Shown here: piece by piece, positions 3,055 to 44,560 of the stretch
How positions within the stretch are numbered: position 1 is the first letter of the stretch
How the letters are laid out: every line of letters starts with the position of its first letter
Assembly (NCBI RefSeq): GCF_036971445.1
Contig: NC_091480.1
Location: forward strand, 12,958,001-13,022,000
DNA: 64,000 nucleotides
Direction of reading: 5' to 3'
DNA from: Narcine bancroftii
Taxonomy: Eukaryota
Notes under the pieces: model-generated
Database searches by the model: none
Told to the model about the DNA's origin: nothing
What the model saw: the letters and a program-made list of their open reading frames with translations, nothing else
Position numbers and translations under genes: made by a program

Positions 3055-3815
3055 ACACAGGGAGAGCAGCGGCGGCCCCGGTCCGGGCTGAGGGTAGGCG
3101 GCGGCGGCCCCAATCCGGGCAGGAGCAAGGGGGAGGCGGCGGCCCCGGCCTCGGTCGAGTGAGGCAGGTGGAGGCCCCGATCCAGGCAGAGAGTGGGAGG
3201 CGGCGGCCCCAGTCCGGGCACAGGGAGAGAGGCGGCGGCCCCAGTCCGGGCACAGGGAGAGCGGCGGCGGCCCCAGTCCGGGCACAGGGAGAGCGGCGGC
3301 GGCCCCAGTCCGGGCACAGGGAGAGCAGCGGCGGCCCCAGTCCGGGCACAGGGAGAGCAGCGGCGGCCCCGGCCCCGGTCCCGGTCCGGGCACAGGGAGA
3401 GCAGCGGCGGCCCCGGCCCCGGTCCGGGCACAGGGAGAGCAGCGGCGGCTCCGGCCCCGGTCTGGGCGAAGGGTAGGCGGCTGCGGCCCCGATCCGGGCA
3501 GGAGCAAGGGGGAGACGGCGGCCCCGATCCGGGCAGGAGCAAGGGGGAGACGGCGGCCCCGATCCGGGCAGGAGCAAGGGGGAGACGGCGGCCCCGATCC
3601 GGGCAGGAGCAAGGGGGAGACGGCGGCCCCGATCCGGGCAGGAGCAAGGGGGAGACGGCGGCCCCGATCCGGGCAGGAGCAAGGGGGAGACGGCGGCCCC
3701 GGCCTCGGTCGAGTGAGGCAGGCGGAGGCCCCGGTCCGGGCAGAGAGTGGGAGGAGGCAGCGGCCCAAGTCCGGGCACAGGGAGAGCTGCGGCGGCCTCG
3801 GCCCCGGTCCGGGCA
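3055..3815. repeat. GC-rich compound minisatellite (~29-33 nt units)
   Basis: Two interspersed unit types, ccgggcacagggagagcggcggcggccccagt and ccgggcaggagcaagggggagacggcggccccgat, plus a higher-order block repeated at ~3115-3200 and ~3670-3755. Confidence 0.92.
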
Positions 3816-3960
3816 GTATGGACCGACCTAGGAGGAGAGGCAGACCCCTCCAGCCCGGGTAAGAAACCTGCATAGGAGAAGGCCACTCCGATATAAAACC
3901 TATGACCCAAGGACCTCGCTGCCACGTCCCAGCTTGCTTGGCCACGGCACACGAACCATG

Positions 3961-4095
3961 GGTGTAAAGGGTGTAAAGGGTGTAAAGGGTGTAAAGGGTG
4001 TAAAGGGTGTAAAGGGTGTAAAGGGTGTAAAGGGTGTAAAGGGTGTAAAGGGTGTAAAGGGTGTAAAGGGTGTAAAGGGTGTAAAGGGTGTAAAG
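3961..4095. repeat. Perfect 9-nt tandem repeat (GGTGTAAAG)15
   Basis: 135 nt, 15 identical units directly after the ATG at 3958; encodes (GVK)15. Confidence 0.97.
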
Positions 4096-4161
4096 GGTGG
4101 GGCCAGTACTGCGCACACTGCACTCCACCTAAAAGTTCCTTTGCGCAGGCCCGAGGACAGG

Positions 4162-5735
4162 TCCACGTCCTCCCCCTCCACGTCCTCCCCCTCCACGTCC
4201 TCCCCCTCCACGTCCTCCCCCTCCACGTCCTCCCCCTCCACGTCCTCCCCCTCCACGTCCTCCCCCTCCACGTCCTCCCCCTCCACGTCCTCCCCCTCCA
4301 CGTCCTCCCCCTCCACGTCCTCCCCCTCCACGTCCTCCCCCTCCACGTCCTCCCCCTCCACGTCCTCCCCCTCCACGTCCTCCCCCTCCACGTCCTCCCC
4401 CTCCACGTCCTCCCCCTCCACGTCCTCCCCCTCCACGTCCTCCCCCTCCACGTCCTCCCCCTCCACGTCCTCCCCCTCCACGTCCTCCCCCTCCACGTCC
4501 TCCCCCTCCACGTCCTCCCCCTCCACGTCCTCCCCCTCCACGTCCTCCCCCTCCACGTCCTCCCCCTCCACGTCCTCCCCCTCCACGTCCTCCCCCTCCA
4601 CGTCCTCCCCCTCCACGTCCTCCCCCTCCACGTCCTCCCCCTCCACGTCCTCCCCCTCCACGTCCTCCCCCTCCACGTCCTCCCCCTCCACGTCCTCCCC
4701 CTCCACGTCCTCCCCCTCCACGTCCTCCCCCTCCACGTCCTCCCCCTCCACGTCCTCCCCCTCCACGTCCTCCCCCTCCACGTCCTCCCCCTCCACGTCC
4801 TCCCCCTCCACGTCCTCCCCCTCCACGTCCTCCCCCTCCACGTCCTCCCCCTCCACGTCCTCCCCCTCCACGTCCTCCCCCTCCACGTCCTCCCCCTCCA
4901 CGTCCTCCCCCTCCACGTCCTCCCCCTCCACGTCCTCCCCCTCCACGTCCTCCCCCTCCACGTCCTCCCCCTCCACGTCCTCCCCCTCCACGTCCTCCCC
5001 CTCCACGTCCTCCCCCTCCACGTCCTCCCCTCCACGTCCTCCCCCTCCACGTCCTCCCCCTCCACGTCCTCCCCCTCCACGTCCTCCCCCTCCACGTCCT
5101 CCCCCTCCACGTCCTCCCCCTCCACGTCCTCCCCCTCCACGTCCTCCCCCTCCACGTCCTCCCCCTCCACGTCCTCCCCCTCCACGTCCTCCCCCTCCAC
5201 GTCCTCCCCCTCCACGTCCTCCCCCTCCACGTCCTCCCCCTCCACGTCCTCCCCCTCCACGTCCTCCCCCTCCACGTCCTCCCCCTCCACGTCCTCCCCC
5301 TCCACGTCCTCCCCCTCCACGTCCTCCCCCTCCACGTCCTCCCCCTCCACGTCCTCCCCCTCCACGTCCTCCCCCTCCACGTCCTCCCCCTCCACGTCCT
5401 CCCCCTCCACGTCCTCCCCCTCCACGTCCTCCCCCTCCACGTCCTCCCCCTCCACGTCCTCCCCCTCCACGTCCTCCCCCTCCACGTCCTCCCCCTCCAC
5501 GTCCTCCCCCTCCACGTCCTCCCCCTCCACGTCCTCCCCCTCCACGTCCTCCCCCTCCACGTCCTCCCCCTCCACGTCCTCCCCCTCCACGTCCTCCCCC
5601 TCCACGTCCTCCCCCTCCACGTCCTCCCCCTCCACGTCCTCCCCCTCCACGTCCTCCCCCTCCACGTCCTCCCCCTCCACGTCCTCCCCCTCCACGTCCT
5701 CCCCCTCCACGTCCTCCCCCTCCACGTCCTCCCCC
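4162..5735. repeat. Near-perfect 15-nt tandem repeat (TCCACGTCCTCCCCC)105
   Basis: 1574 nt = 105 units minus one C (unit at ~5027-5030 has C4 instead of C5). No substitutions seen. Encodes (STSSP)n in the RTE frame. Confidence 0.97.
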
Positions 5736-8700
5736 TCAAAAGATGCTCACAAACTCAAGCTAGCATGCTGGAACATCAGAACCATGCTAGACAAGGCTGA
5801 CAGCCACCGACCTGAACGTCGGTCTGCCCTCATTGCACATGAACTCCTCAGACTTGACATCGACATAGCCGCTCTCAGTGAAGTCCGCCTGGCAGATGTA
5901 GGCAGAATCCAAGAACGCGGCGCGGGCTACACACTCTACTGGTCTGGCAAGCCTTCGGATGAACGACGCCTATCTGGTGTAGGCTTCATGGTCAAGAACT
6001 CCATTGCCTCCAAACTCGAAAACCTCCCGACAGGCCACTTGGACCGGATCACGTCCATGCAACTCCTCCTTCAAAACAAGCGTCACATCACCCTCATCAG
6101 TGTCTATGCTCCAACCCTCCAGGCGGAACCAGCAGAAAAGGAGAAGTTCTACACTGTCCTGCGCAACCTCATCCAACGCACCCCTACAGCCGACAAGGTT
6201 GTCATCCTTGGCGACTTCAACGCTCGCGTCGGCAAAGACTCAGAAACCTGCCAGGAATCCTGGGCAAGCATGGCGTCGGCAAGTGCAACGACAATGGGCG
6301 CCTCCTGTTGGAGCTCTGCGCAGAACAGCGGCTTGTCATTACAAACACCCTTTTTCAGCAGAGGGACAGCCTTAAGACCACCTGGATGCATCCCCGATCC
6401 AAACACTGGCACCTCCTGAACTACATCCTGGTGCGAGAAAGAGACAAACGAGATGTGCTCCACACCAGGGTCATGCCAAGCGCGGAATGCCACACTGACC
6501 ACCGGCTGGTTCGCTGCAAGCTCAACCTTCACTTCAAGCCAAAGCCCAGGAACAGTAAAGCCCCCAGAAAGAGGTTCAATGTTGGAAACCTGCAGTCAGA
6601 CGAAGCGAGAGGAAACTTCCAGGCAAACCTCAAAGCAAAGCTCGACGATGCAATCCGCCTCACAGACCCGTCCCCTGAAACCCTCTGGGATCAGTTGAAG
6701 ACTACCATACTGCAATCCACTGAAGAGGTACTGGGCTTCTCCTCCAGGAAAAACAAGGACTGGTTCGATGAAAACAGCCAGGAAATCCAGGAGCTGCTGG
6801 CAAAGAAGAGAGCTGCCCACCAGGCTCACCTTACAAAGCCGTCCTGTCCAGAGAAGAAACAAGCCTTCCGTCGCGCATGCAGCCATCTTCAGCGCAAACT
6901 CCGGGAGATCCAAAATGAGTGGTGGACTAGCCTCGCCAAACGAACCCAGCTCAGCGCGGACATTGGCGACTTCAGGGGTTTCTACGAGGCTCTAAAGGCT
7001 GTGTACGGCCCCTCACCCCAAGTCCAAAGCCCGCTGCGCAGCTCAGACGGCAAAGTCCTCCTCAGCGACAAGATCTCCATCCTCAACCGATGGTCAGAAC
7101 ACTTCCAATCTCTTTTCAGTGCCAACCGTTCAGTCCAAGATTCCGCCCTGCTCCAGCTCCCTCAACAGCCCCTAAGGCTAGAGCTGGATGAGGTCCTCAC
7201 CCAGGATGAGACATATAAGGCAATCGAACAACTGAAAAGTGGCAAAGCAGCAGGTATGGATGGAATCCCCCCAGAGGTCTGGAAGGCTGGCGGAAAAACT
7301 CTGCATGCCAAACTGCATGAGTTTTTCAAGCTTTGTTGGGACCAAGGAAAACTGCCTCAGGACCTTCATGATGCCACCATCATCACCCTGTACAAAAAAA
7401 AAGGCGAGAAATCAGACTGCTCAAACTACAGGGGAATCACGCTGCTCTCCATTGCAGGCAAAATCTTCGCTAGGATTCTCCTAAATAGAATAATACCTAG
7501 TGTCGCCAAGAATATTCTCCCAGAATCACAGTGCGGCTTTCGCGCAAACAGAGGAACTACTGACATGGTCTTTGCCCTCAGACAGCTCCAAGAAAAGTGC
7601 AGAGAGCAAAACAAAGGACTCTACATCACCTTTGTTGACCTCACCAAAGCCTTCGACACCGTGAGCAGGAAAGGGCTTTGGCAAATACTAGAGCGCATCG
7701 GAAGCCCCCCAAAGTTCCTCAACATGATTATCCAACTGCACGAAAACCAACAAGGTCGGGTCAGATACAGCAATGAGCTCTCTGAACCCTTCTCCATTAA
7801 CAATGGCGTGAAGCAAGGCTGCGTTCTCGCACCAACCCTCTTTTCAATCTTCTTCAGCATGATGCTGAAACAAGCCATGAAAGACCTCAACAATGAAGAC
7901 GCTGTTTACATCCGGTATCGCACTGCAAGCTCACACCAAGACACAAGAGAAACTTGTGCGTGAACTACTCTTTGCAGACGATGCCGCTTTAGTTGCCAAT
8001 TCAGAGCCAGCTCTTCAGCGCTTGTCGTCCTGTTTTGCGGAAACTGCCAAAATGTTTGGCCTGGAAGTCAGCCTGAAGAAAACTGAGGTCCTCCATCAGC
8101 CAGCTCCCCACCATGACTACCAGCCCCCCCCCACATCTCCATCGGGCACACAAAACTCAAAACGGTCAACCAGTTTACCTATCTCGGCTGCACCATTTCA
8201 TCAGATGCAAGGATCGACAATGAGATAGACAACAGACTCGCCAAGGCAAATAGCGCCTTTGGAAGACTACACAAAAGAGTCTGGAAAAACAACCAACTGA
8301 AAAACCTCACAAAGATAAGCGTATACAGAGCCGTTGTCATACCCACACTCCTGTTCGGCTCCGAATCATGGGTCCTCTACCGGCATCACCTACGGCTCCT
8401 AGAACGCTTCCACCAGTGTTGTCTCCGCTCCATCCTCAACATTCATTGGAGCGCTTTCATCCCTAACGTCGAAGTACTCGAGATGGCAGAGGTCGACAGC
8501 ATCGAGTCCACGCTGCTGAAGATCTAGCAGCGCTGGGTGGGTCACGTCTCCAGAATGGAGGACCATCGCCTTCCCAAGATCGTGTTATATGGCGAGCTCT
8601 CCATTGGCCACCGTGACAGAGGTGCACCAAAGAAGAGGTACAAGGACTGCCTAAAGAAATCTCTTGGTGCCTGCCCCATTGACCACCGCCAGTGGGCTGA

Positions 8701-16861: not shown

Positions 16862-17580
16862 AAGTCAAGTCAAGTCACCTTTATTTATCGTTCATACCAT
16901 GCTCACACGGTAAAGATGAGAAAGTGTTGCTCCAGGGCCACGGACCATAAATATTAGTTACAACAGAAGTTAAACACATTGAAATATTAAAATATTAAGA
17001 TATAAACAGGAACAGTCCATGGTTCACTATCCACAAATATTCTGGGAATTCAGGAGTTTAATGGCTTTGGGGGGGGGGGGAAACTGTTGCCCAACCTGGA
17101 CACAAGGGCCCAAGTGCTGCAAGTACCTCCTACCAGATGGCAGAAGAGTTTATCTGAGGGGTGTGTGGAGTCCTTCACAATGTGTATTGCCTTTCGCCTG
17201 CATCGAGTGTTGTACATGTCCTTCATGGTAGGAAGAGAGCCCCCAATGATCTTTTCCTCTGACTTCACTGTCCTCTGGAGGGTCTTGTAGTCCGAGGAGG
17301 TACAACTTCCAAACCAGTTGCGCAGGATGCTCTCGATATATCCTCTGTAGAACGTAGTGAGGATGGAAGGTGGGAGATGAGCTCTCGTCAGCTTTTGCAG
17401 GAAGTAGAGACGCTGCTGGGGTTTCTTGGCTATGGAGCTGGTGTAAAGGGACCAGGCGAGATTCTTCAAGTACACTCCAAGGAACTTGATACTCTTGACA
17501 ACCTCAAAGGTGGAGCCATCAACGCCCAGTGGATCCTGGTCTCCCTGGGGCCTCCTGAAGTCGACGACCATCTCTTTCAT
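16862..17580 (-). mobile_element. Rex1/Babar-like LINE fragment
   Basis: KEMVVDFRR...KFLGV...QQRLYFL...TFYRGYIESIL; tail aataaa...(acttg)n. Confidence 0.8.
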
Positions 17581-19066
17581 TTTTTTTAAACGTATGAAGA
17601 TGAGGCATTAAACAATCTGCTGAAGGCGCTCAGCAGGTCATGGAAAATCAGTGGGAGAAAAAGGATCAAGTTACTCTTGATGAAGGGATCCAACCCAAAA
17701 TGTTGATGGTCATGCATCATCCATAGGAAGGGTAACTAACGTTTTGGATGGACCCATGTCCAAAACATTGGTTTCCCTTTCCTTCCTATGGATGCTGCAT
17801 GACCGGCTGATTTCTCCAGCACTTTCGTGTATCTCCAGCATCTGGAGACTTTGTTTAACTCAATGGCTTTTCTGCTCAACGTCACTGGACCAGGAAACTA
17901 TTCTCCAATTTGACCAATGAATACATTTTGTCCAAACACAAAATCCTGCCTGGGATGTTTTGCATGCAATTATTCCTGTTCTCTACAGTGAACAAAGCAA
18001 GTAATACAAAGCAAATTAAGTGAGCACTCGGAGGAACTAGGCCATGCATACCTCTCAGATTACAATTGCCCACAGAATAACTGAGAGGAAATTAAATGTC
18101 AATATTAATTATTAATATATTGTCCTATACAGGTGGCACGCTTAGCACTGACTGTAAGGAGTTTGTACGTCCTGTCCTCCCTGTGTCTGCGTGGGTCTCC
18201 TCCCACTGTTCAAAATGTACAAGGATTGTAAGCTAATTGGGGCATTTGGGGGGCATGGGCTGGTGGTCCGGAAGGGCCTGCGATGGTGCTGTTTATAAAT
18301 AAATTTTAAAATTAAGTTTTGCCTTTATAATCCCATCAATCGATCATCAGGCAGAAATAGGTCAAAAATAATTAGGATACAAATCTCTAATTAGCTCAGC
18401 ATGGACCTGATTGGCACCTTTCCATTCTGCACCATTCCACAATCTCATTAAGGGTTTTCCATTTTCTCTCACTCCTGCTAACACTTCTTAATACCCCCCC
18501 AAAGCTGGTGAAAGTGACATGCTGGTTCCAAGCCAAATTCAGCTCTGGTTACCAAGACATCATCCCATTCATTATTCAGGAAGATTGAAATTACTTTCTC
18601 TGCGGCAGAATTTCCCCCAACTTCTCATCATGGTTTACTCCTCCCAGAGGTCCTGGTGTTAAAGGAGCACGATGCCTATTTAAAGAGGGAACAGTGTGTG
18701 AAGGTACACCTTGCACCGAAAGAAGAAGCCTCGAACTGGAAAATATTTTGTCTCCCACTTAGCCCCTTCCAGCTGAGGTACATTCCAAGATGCTCCAACT
18801 GTAATTGTGTCCACACATTGATCCATTTTCTACCAAATGATCATCTTTCCATTGAAAGCATTGTGAAGACAATACTTCAATATTTACAAGCTCGTGCCAC
18901 CCAAATACCCAATTAACCTACAACCTCTATACATTTTGAAAGGTGGGAGGTAACCGGAGCACACAGAGGAAACCCACAGATATGGGGAGAATGTACAATC
19001 TCCTAACAGACACCACCTGATTTGAACCCAGGTCACTGGGGCTGCAATAATGTTGTGCTAACCATA

Positions 19067-31757: not shown

Positions 31758-32410
31758 CTCAAGTCAAGGTAAATTTAGTCATCTAATTGCACAAGTACAA
31801 CCTGATGAAACAGCCTTGTCTGGTCCTCGGTGCAAAACACACAGACACACAACCAGACATAACACACTTACAGACATAGTCCTGACTAGTATTCATAAAA
31901 GACAAATAAATATTGTTCCATAAATATGAAGATCTCAGATGGTTTGTGTGAGCAGTTCCTTTGGTCGTTCACCATTCTCACTGACCATGAAGAAGCTGTT
32001 CCTCGGCCTGGTGGTGCAGGCTCCAATACTCCTGTATCACTTTCCCGACAGGAGCAGCTAAAAGATGCTGTGGGTGGGGTGGAAGGGGTCCTCAATCATT
32101 TTGCAAGCCCTCCTCAGACAATAATATGGTAGACCACGTTGATGTGGTGGGGGGCGCAGTGTTGTGGAGGGAGATTCCAGTGATCCTCTTATGGTCCTGT
32201 TGATCGACATCCGAACCATTTCTCTGCAGCAACCGTACGGCACTGTGATGCAGCCGGCCAGGACGCTCTCGATAGAGCTCCTGTAAAAGGTTGACATGAT
32301 GGTGGCCAGTAGCCTTGCCCACTTCAGTCTTCTCAGGAATTGCTGTCGCTGTTGTGCCTTTCTGACAAATGAGGAGATGTTGTGTGTCCATGAGAGGTCA
32401 CTAGTTAAGT
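31758..32410 (-). mobile_element. Rex1/Babar-like LINE fragment
   Basis: DLSWTHNISSFVRKAQQR...TFYRSSIESVLAGCITV. Related fragments at ~15230-15560, 26965-27425 and 35050-35290 (minus), and 43140-43375, 45830-45988 and 46740-46840 (plus). Confidence 0.78.
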
Positions 32411-32734
32411 TCCTGCCTCCTTCTGGACACTGCGAGACCTGCTGAGTTCCTCCAGCATTTCTGTATTTTTTCTTCTTTTTTTCCTCCTTCTTCCAGTCCT
32501 CAGAAATAATCGCCAACCTGAAATGTTCACGTTGTTTCTATTTCAACAAATGCTGCCTAAACTGGCGAGTGTTTCCAGCATTTTCTATTTTTATTGCATT
32601 TATTAAGTGGATACAAGAGATTGAATACAAGAGACTCTGGTAAATGACTCACCTCCTGGCACACCAAGCTACCTACTATCCTCCTGTCTCGAGGAGCCCA
32701 TCACCACTCAAATGCAAGTCTCGGTAACATTCAG

Positions 32735-43855: not shown

Positions 43856-44560
43856 CCAGTGTAACACGCTGCAACTAAAGAACCCCCCCCCCCCCACCCT
43901 TCCCTTCCCCTCCCCTCCCTTCCCTTCCCCTCCCCTAAAGCCCCCCCCCAGTGTAACACGCTGCAACTAAAGACCTCCCCAGACTTTCCCCTAGACCCCC
44001 CCCAGCCTTTCCCCTAGACCCCCCCCCAGCCTTTCCCCTAGACCCCCCCCCAGCCTTTCCCCTAGACCCCCCCCAGCCTTTCCCCTAGACCCCCCCTAGC
44101 CTTTCCCCTAGACCCCCCCCCCAGCCTTTCCCCTAGACCCCCCCCAGCCTTTCCCCTAGACCCCCCCCCAGCCTTTCCCCTAAAGAACCCCCCAGCCTTT
44201 CCCCTAAAGAACCCCCCAGCCTTTCCCTTAAAGACCCCCCCGCCTTTCCCCTAAAGACCCCCCCAGCCTTTCCCCTAAAGAACCCCCCAGCCTTTCCCCT
44301 AAAGAACCCCCCAGCCTTTCCCCTAAAGACCCCCCCAGCCTTTCCCCTAAAGACCCCCCCAGCCTTTCCCCTAAAGACCCCCCCAGCCTTTCCCCTAAAG
44401 ACCCTCCCCACCCTCCGTCCCCAAAAGACACCCACCCTCCCCTTCCCCGAAAGACCCCCAGTGTAACACGCTGCAACTAAAGACCCCCCCACACCCTCCC
44501 TTCCCCTAGACCCTCCTTCCTCCCCTTCCCCTAAAGACCCCCCCCAAGACACCCACCCAC
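43856..44560. repeat. C-rich minisatellite (~21-nt unit ccccccagcctttcccctaaaga)
   Basis: About 20 units at ~43975-44400, bracketed by three copies of ccagtgtaacacgctgcaactaaaga (43856, 43948, 44458). Confidence 0.93.

What the first reader, a model, noticed from the sequence alone, without database searches (positions are those of the whole stretch)
3958..5790. Two codon-multiple tandem expansions inside the N-terminus of an RTE ORF
Seen: collapsing each array to one unit gives a clean frame, MGVKGGASTAHTALHLKVPLRRPEDRSTSSPSKDAHKLKLACWNIRTMLDK, running into the endonuclease. Both unit lengths (9 and 15) are multiples of 3. Only one missing C at ~5030 breaks a (GVK)15...(STSSP)105-endonuclease frame. 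The arrays show no substitutions, even at the CpG in each 15-mer, although the downstream ORF has several lesions. Each array ends with a partial unit (GGGTG, TC) that could allow realignment. Inference: the repeats are born from the element's own sequence, either by iterative, telomerase-like re-copying of a short template stretch by the RT or by very recent post-insertion expansion. The homogeneity favours a recent or ongoing process. Assembly inflation remains possible.
Basis: partly seen in the sequence, partly recalled or inferred. Interest (0 to 1): 0.7.

Follow-up and report, generated by a model that had tools for sequence, protein, structure and literature searches.

The report
Retrotransposon seeds GC-selective expanding minisatellites
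A jumping-gene family with thousands of copies in this genome carries a short 15-base repeat inside its protein-coding start, and about one copy in ten, this one included, holds tens to hundreds of nearly identical units that likely grew after insertion through host DNA repair, apparently only when the unit keeps its C and G bases, which gives a large natural series for studying how minisatellites expand.

Summary
Both arrays are real: 15 x 9 bp (3960-4099) and 105 x 15 bp (4162-5737, one unit a C short), inside a dead copy of an active RTE-type LINE (about 3,500 copies with this junction). The 15-mer is a family feature: 1-2 units in old subfamilies, 3-13 in most newly inserted copies, in frame. 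About 10% of copies have grown to 19-320 pure units. Long arrays lack the substitutions their element bodies have gathered, are rare in the youngest copies and can be fixed for private, even frameshifting, units. So they grew after insertion, and telomerase-like re-copying by the RT is not supported for them. Two features are new here. Only units changed at A/T positions expand (11 of 14 loci, against 0 of 19 at C/G positions). The rare 9-mer array (8 copies genome-wide) co-occurs with long 15-mer arrays, and this copy has a third expansion in its 5' UTR. The (GVK)15(STSSP)105 protein cannot be made: the ORF is broken downstream. Array length could not be checked in reads. The scan noted this family's 15-mer before on other DNA (e1-9815744).

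The parts
3056..3957 (+). 5' UTR of the RTE-type LINE: GC-rich 26-44-bp monomer head and tether, CpG-island-like (GC 76%, CpG o/e 0.74). The 5' boundary is approximate; no target-site duplication was found.
3483..3701 (+). Third, locus-private expansion: perfect 35-bp unit x 6.3 in the 5' UTR (a 32-bp unit x 3 at 3231-3326)
   Evidence: runs of 3 or more perfect copies in 2 of 19 long-array and 0 of 54 short-array copies
3958..3960 (+). ATG of the family's single ORF (MGVKGGAST... in intact copies)
3960..4099 (+). 9-bp array GGGTGTAAA x15 + GGGTG; one unit between 5-bp GGGTG direct repeats in nearly all other copies
4162..5737 (+). 15-bp minisatellite TCCACGTCCTCCCCC x105 + TC (STSSP in frame); the G-rich strand reads (GGN)4-CGT, G4Hunter 1.87
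5017..5030 (+). Unit 58, one C short (real slip or homopolymer consensus error; single C-run changes occur in several other long arrays)
5769..6224 (+). AP-type endonuclease domain (PF03372), cut by a 1-bp deletion after 6250
7397..8096 (+). Reverse transcriptase domain (PF00078), broken by a 29-bp deletion after 7922 whose junction is unique in the genome
8097..8958 (+). ORF C-terminal part (2-bp insertion at 8124, TAG 8525-8527, 2-bp deletion after 8730), short 3' UTR and A/G-rich tail
   Evidence: the 3' junction is bridged by one contig in each of 4 runs of one sample

Best explanation
This is a dead copy of an active RTE-type LINE whose family carries a short in-frame 15-bp repeat, and the 105-unit array, the 15-unit 9-mer array and a 35-bp 5' UTR array likely grew at this locus after insertion, likely by host repair synthesis that realigns repeatedly on the G-rich, structure-prone unit. 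Shown: unit number rose along the active lineage (1, then 2, then 3-13); about 10% of inserted copies hold 19-320 units; these arrays are purer than their bodies; units changed at C/G positions, CpG included, are not found in long runs, while units changed at A/T positions are; expansions of neighbouring motifs co-occur in cis. Inferred: the 15-mer array, once it has a few pure units, provokes fork stalling or breaks (G-quadruplex on the G-rich strand, or recombination aimed at the CpG-island-like head); repair by reiterative synthesis and intra-array conversion lengthens and homogenises it, favours or requires C/G, and now and then slips on the GGGTG microhomology 62 bp upstream, which starts the 9-mer array. 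I put post-insertion growth at about 0.85 and this repair route, as against plain replication slippage, at about 0.5.
For: Family counts: 3,502 junctions, 250 with 12 or more perfect units. Of the first 100 junction copies on C1, 92 had a closed array: median 3, 11 with 19 or more units, 4 with 100 or more, maximum 320. Youngest copies (30 of 40 listed, identical over 800 bp): 3-13 units, one 28; 0 of 30 with 30 or more against 7 of 44 at 0.25-2% divergence, p=0.037. Purity: 29 arrays of 19 or more units, 287 substitutions expected from their bodies, 6 variant runs seen; for the 9 chosen by junction alone, 114 against 2. This copy: 0 seen, 7 expected from 14 singleton changes (P=0.001), 23-30 by neighbour-based estimates; its RT deletion junction is unique. 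Long arrays are scattered over the ladder-like tree of 136 bodies. Arrays fixed for private units: L008, L012 (16 bp), L032, L076 (16 bp), L159 and others. Sequence filter: last two units sharing a change at A/T positions 4, 7, 10: 14 loci, 11 with runs of 20-97; at C/G positions 3, 5, 6, 9, 11, 12: 19 loci, longest run 4 (Fisher 1.9e-6), although short arrays mutate mainly C/G to A/T (59 of 69). Unanchored CpG-decayed arrays reach at most 12 units. Coupling: 8 copies with a duplicated 9-mer against 3,343 with the site; 5 of 8 have 29 or more 15-mers, 4 of 7 without this copy, p=0.005 against 11/92.
Against: No reads span the array: only short contigs of one sample are served, so the length of 105 rests on the assembly. 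One haplotype only, so no allele-length variation was seen. G4Hunter and hairpin energies do not separate expanding from non-expanding variants: CpG-decayed units score 1.80-1.93 against 1.87, so a G-quadruplex alone does not explain the CpG requirement. A GC-biased conversion signal in the flanks is weak and not monotonic (41/141 against 145/751 within 800 bp, p=0.013 after pooling bins post hoc). A/T positions are also every third base of the (CCN)n frame, so 'GC bias' and 'motif requirement' are confounded; one T-to-A array reached 20 units (L260). Positions 1, 2, 8 and 13-15 were not surveyed. 17 of the 29 purity arrays were picked for 12 perfect 3' units. One very young copy already has 86 units (L041), so growth can be fast or sometimes happen at insertion. 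The 5' UTR coupling rests on 2 copies (p=0.065).
Confidence: 0.8

Rival explanations
1. The element's RT re-copies a short template stretch many times during insertion (telomerase-like stutter), so the long arrays are born with the copy.
For: Both units end in a realignment microhomology (GGGTG, TC). Unit number varies 3-13 among copies identical over 800 bp. 3 of 8 duplicated 9-mers lie at 5' truncation junctions. L041 has 86 units with near-zero divergence. Several motifs expand in one copy.
Against: Arrays made at insertion would age with the body: 287 substitutions expected, 6 runs seen. 0 of 30 youngest copies reach 30 units. Arrays fixed for private variants occur in copies 1-3% diverged. 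An RT would not be expected to need intact C/G positions.
Confidence: 0.07
2. Ordinary replication slippage with a purity and length threshold; the apparent C/G filter reflects duplex stability of misaligned units, with no structure or recombination involved.
For: Young subfamilies with more starting units give more long arrays. Variants occur as contiguous blocks (L053, L058, L170). Flank conversion signal is weak. This shares the post-insertion timing of the best explanation.
Against: A one-base change in 15 abolishing long runs, and the co-expansion of a 9-mer that has a single unit in over 99% of copies, are hard to get from independent slippage.
Confidence: 0.3
3. Assembly inflation: tandem units were multiplied or homogenised by the assembler.
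For: No spanning reads were available; single C-run length changes look like homopolymer errors; L031 shows a scrambled C-rich stretch.
Against: Lengths differ from locus to locus (1-320) and follow copy age; the assembly keeps variant blocks inside long arrays (L053, L058, L170); variant identity is strongly non-random and locus-private.
Confidence: 0.05
4. The long repeats are selected protein parts: a (GVK)n/(STSSP)n disordered leader that helps the retrotransposon protein.
For: 14 of the 100 sampled copies have a whole ORF, with 3-12 STSSP units and one with 118 (L135, 1,683 aa); unit number rose along the active lineage.
Against: This copy is dead downstream; 16-bp frameshifting units expand as well; the positions free to vary are first, not third, codon positions; no long-array clade in the tree; no such run seen by eye in the printed N-termini of homologues.
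Confidence: 0.04

Closest known systems
Minisatellites born inside transposable elements: mouse Ms6-hm (MaLR), (GGCAGA)n (B1), Alu-derived and Gmr9/Ogre minisatellites; Haber-Louis origin between short direct repeats (review PMC6947457, section 3.1 and table passages read; Ahmed and Liang 2012, PMC3389668, abstract and first part of Results read)
   Same: The unit is part of the element, one site expands independently at many loci, growth is local and after insertion, and the 9-mer sits between 5-bp direct repeats.
   Different: Here the unit lies in the reading frame of an autonomous, still active LINE; arrays reach 320 units; long arrays are purer than short ones, whereas Ahmed and Liang report more divergence in longer arrays; a base-position filter and cis coupling are not described in the passages read.
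SVA hexamer and VNTR (PMC10681720, passages read; PMC5754783, search listing only)
   Same: An active non-LTR element that carries C-rich/G-rich repeats of variable length, lengthening along the lineage and between copies, with two repeat types side by side.
   Different: SVA is non-autonomous and its repeats are non-coding; the RTE repeat is coding and starts from 1-2 units.
G-quadruplex-dependent minisatellite instability, human CEB1 in yeast (PMC2673046, abstract and section headings read)
   Same: G-rich tandem unit predicted to fold G4; instability that depends on unit sequence.
   Different: Structure and helicase dependence are untested here, and CpG-decayed units keep their G4 score yet do not expand.
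AviRTE and aquatic RTE LINEs (PMC4844689, passages read)
   Same: One ORF of about 3.2 kb, 5' UTR near 800 bp, very short 3' UTR, relatives in aquatic animals (67-78% identity over the endonuclease region to fish, lancelet and unnamed proteins), short derivatives made of 5' and 3' parts.
   Different: GC-rich monomer head and in-frame STSSP repeat; placement on an RTE tree was not tested.

Membership tests
RTE-clade LINE | Single ORF with AP endonuclease followed by RT, no separate ORF1 (feature recalled; ORF size as in PMC4844689) | tested here: met
   L120 has one ORF of 500 aa or more, 1,123 aa; PF03372 and PF00078 in the window copy
RTE-clade LINE | Very short 3' UTR ending in a short simple-repeat tail | tested here: met
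   AAGCCAAGCC followed by A/G-rich tails in the window and 7 copies printed
RTE-clade LINE | Target-site duplication | tested here: inconclusive
   None of 6 bp or more found for this copy; the 5' boundary is uncertain
RTE-clade LINE | RT groups with named RTE elements on a tree | not tested
TE-derived minisatellite | Unit present in the element and amplified locally at many independent loci | tested here: met
TE-derived minisatellite | Founder unit flanked by 5-10-bp direct repeats (Haber-Louis, via PMC6947457) | tested here: inconclusive
   Met for the 9-mer (GGGTG); the 15-mer has only TC
TE-derived minisatellite | Allele-length variation between individuals or gametes | not testable with these tools
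   One haplotype; only contigs of one sample
Telomerase-like reiterative RT product | Long array present from the moment of insertion and ageing with the element | tested here: not met
Telomerase-like reiterative RT product | Realignment microhomology at the unit end | tested here: met
   GGGTG and TC partial units; expected under slippage as well
G4-dependent unstable minisatellite (CEB1 type) | Loss of G-tracts abolishes instability; G4-neutral changes do not | tested here: inconclusive
   G-tract positions 3, 9, 11, 12: no long variant runs; but G4-neutral CpG changes do not expand either
PRDM9-destabilised minisatellite | Complete PRDM9 whose zinc fingers would read the repeat | tested here: inconclusive
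   PRDM9-like gene on C11 with KRAB, PR/SET and 7 fingers, 6 near-identical; no SSXRD found there; finger contacts R/W-N-Q suggest A-rich triplets by the recalled code, not the GGN strand

The most novel reading that the evidence does not exclude
The CpG-island-like 5' end of this LINE is a portable instability hot spot: in a genome whose PRDM9 lacks a detectable SSXRD domain, recombination defaults to such islands, and break repair there amplifies any short direct repeat within about 1 kb, with a strict C/G (CpG-included) filter on which unit variants can grow. The retrotransposon would thus scatter thousands of hot spots and minisatellite nurseries, and now and then build intact ORFs with over 100 STSSP repeats.
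Probability: 0.2. Interest if true: 0.75.

Novelty: new variant of a known kind. Interest (0 to 1): 0.5.

Why it matters
Why some short repeats become hypervariable minisatellites and others stay quiet is usually studied one locus at a time. Here the same founder unit sits at about 3,500 dated loci, with natural point mutants at most positions, so the dependence on starting length, age, base position and neighbours can be read from one genome and then tested with cloned variants. The absence of long C/G-mutant arrays, CpG included, and the co-expansion of neighbouring motifs are sharp, testable signatures. The single locus given is ordinary within its family except that it is one of two copies seen with three expansions.

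Tried and rejected
Hairpin and G4 scores as the explanation of the variant filter: no separation. Unmethylated state of expanding copies: CpG decay just upstream of the array 12/618 against 24/1002 (young) and 4/130 against 92/1366 (older), no clear difference. GC-biased conversion in flanks: weak. PRDM9: the one SSXRD hit (C9, E=0.23) has no PR domain near it and was dropped. Target-site duplication: not found. Host gene context: Pfam scan of 118 of 123 open frames of 85 aa or more outside the element gave 2 ALKBH8_N-like hits and nothing else. Long arrays as an inherited subfamily trait: rejected by the tree. Literature: 9 searches listed no paper on an in-frame RTE minisatellite or on a C/G filter of this kind; only listings were seen for most hits, subscription papers and supplements were not seen. 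Sequence look-up among earlier notes found nothing.
Full report
Observation. The two arrays are as described: 15 units of 9 bp at 3960-4094 plus GGGTG, and 105 units of 15 bp at 4162-5735 plus TC, with unit 58 one C short and no substitution. They lie in the first codons of a LINE with endonuclease and RT domains. The copy is dead apart from the short unit: a 1-bp deletion after 6250, a 29-bp deletion after 7922, a 2-bp insertion at 8124, a stop at 8525-8527 and a 2-bp deletion after 8730. The 29-bp deletion junction occurs once in the 3.33-Gb genome. A third perfect run, 35 bp x 6.3, lies in the GC-rich 5' UTR at 3483-3701.

The family. The array-endonuclease junction has 3,502 exact matches and the 9-mer start site 3,343. 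I fetched the first 100 junction copies listed, all on C1. 92 had both array ends: mode 2 units, median 3, 11 with 19 or more, 4 with 100 or more, up to 320; 8 were open or truncated and left out of this count. Genome-wide, 250 copies end in 12 or more perfect units. A tree of 136 of 157 bodies (those with 1,200 or more aligned bases, CpG columns removed) is a ladder: the oldest copies have 1 unit, the next 2, the young ones mostly 3-12, and long arrays sit on scattered tips. 14 of the 100 have a whole ORF beginning MGVKGGAST...(STSSP)3-12, one with 118 repeats. So the 15-mer is a short variable family feature that grew along the active lineage, and this copy is in the long tail.

When did the long arrays grow? 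Three tests agree on 'after insertion'. First, among 30 copies identical to an intact copy over 800 bp (30 of 40 listed), units run 3-13 with one 28; none reaches 30, against 7 of 44 copies at 0.25-2% divergence (p=0.037). Second, 29 arrays of 19 or more units should hold about 287 substitutions if as old as their bodies and hold 6 variant runs; the 9 chosen without regard to purity give 114 against 2. For this copy the expectation is 7 from singleton changes alone (P=0.001) and 23-30 by neighbour-based estimates. Third, many arrays are fixed end to end for a private unit, including 16-bp units that break the frame. Against a clean story: one near-zero-age copy has 86 units, and unit number varies among new copies, so small changes may arise at insertion.

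A filter on unit sequence. Short arrays mutate mostly from C/G to A/T (59 of 69 changes in 292 units, 21 of them CpG decay; 5 the other way; a few are inherited subfamily variants). I searched the genome for copies whose last two units share a change at one position. At the A/T positions 4, 7 and 10 there are 14 loci, 13 changed to C or G, and 11 carry runs of 20-97 variant units (L255 counted). At the C/G positions 3, 5, 6, 9, 11 and 12 there are 19 loci and the longest run is 4 (Fisher 1.9e-6). Many of the 19 are old 2-unit copies, so the telling fact is the absence of long runs: unanchored searches for CpG-decayed units found 5 TpG loci (longest 12 units) and 2 CpA loci of 3 units, one not in an RTE. 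By hand, about 330 long arrays times a 5-7% chance of such a change predicts roughly 16-24. G4Hunter and hairpin energies do not tell the classes apart. Six of 15 positions were not surveyed, and A/T positions coincide with the third place of a (CCN)n pattern, so GC bias and a motif requirement cannot yet be separated.

Coupling in cis. Only 8 copies have a duplicated 9-mer. Three are single duplications at a 5' truncation junction, which may be insertion-time events. Four have long runs (9, 15, 21, 31). Five of the 8 have 29 or more 15-mers; without this copy 4 of 7, p=0.005 against 11 of 92. The 31-unit copy has a scrambled C-rich stretch and a deletion where the 15-mer array should be. Perfect 5' UTR runs of 3 or more copies occur in 2 of 19 long-array and 0 of 54 short-array copies, and both are copies with long 9-mer runs: this one and L032. 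Some loci therefore amplify three unrelated motifs within about 1 kb.

Mechanism. Shown: origin in the element, growth after insertion, purity, sequence filter, coupling. Inferred: a few pure units of a G-rich, G4-prone 15-mer beside a CpG-island-like head provoke stalling or breaks, and repair synthesis realigns repeatedly, homogenises the array and sometimes slips on nearby microhomologies. Flanks of long-array copies show only a weak excess of A/T-to-G/C changes. A PRDM9-like gene is present with KRAB, PR/SET and a short finger array but no detected SSXRD; Baker et al. (PMC5519329, passages read) report SSXRD absent in some cartilaginous fish and recombination at promoter-like features where functional PRDM9 is lacking. 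That link is a lead, not a result. The host as a ray comes from earlier scan notes and was not tested here.

Comparison and verdict. Minisatellites born in transposable elements are well known (PMC6947457; PMC3389668; SVA, PMC10681720; G4-dependent CEB1, PMC2673046). This is a new variant: the seed is in the ORF of an active autonomous LINE, and thousands of dated replicates expose a base-position filter and cis coupling that my 9 searches did not find described. The scan had already noted the family's 15-mer at another locus (e1-9815744). The telomerase-like reading and the giant repeat protein are not supported. Array length is unverified in reads. Interest 0.5.

Noticed in passing
L135 (G000:C1:47745974-47752824): A copy with a whole 1,683-aa ORF that holds 118 in-frame STSSP repeats ahead of the endonuclease.
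   Followed up: partly
L226, L229, L231, L233, L239, L242: Short internally deleted derivatives: 5' head and a few 15-mers joined to the last 100-300 bases of the element.
   Followed up: no
L005, L010, L021, L170, L201, L248: Copies with an inverted piece of the element joined upstream, like twin-priming inversions; several junctions fall in or beside the arrays.
   Followed up: no
G000:C11:180.77-180.79 Mb (L329, L330) and C11:183.93 Mb (L340, L341): PRDM9-like gene with KRAB, zinc knuckle, PR/SET and 7 fingers (6 near-identical), no SSXRD detected; a second, shorter copy 3 Mb away.
   Followed up: partly
L196-L225: At least 40 copies identical over 800 bp: the family is very recently active; many share a marker change in unit 2 of the array.
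   Followed up: partly
window 43883-44459: A second C-rich minisatellite (about 24 bp x 20.5, two sub-blocks, variable C runs) in a CpG-rich stretch.
   Followed up: no
L195 and L247: Copies in which a shorter derivative of the 15-mer (TCCTCCCCC-type 9-mer) has expanded in its place.
   Followed up: no
window 17053-17607 and 32061-32537 (- strand): Two open frames with an ALKBH8_N Pfam match, probably ends of another LINE family.
   Followed up: no
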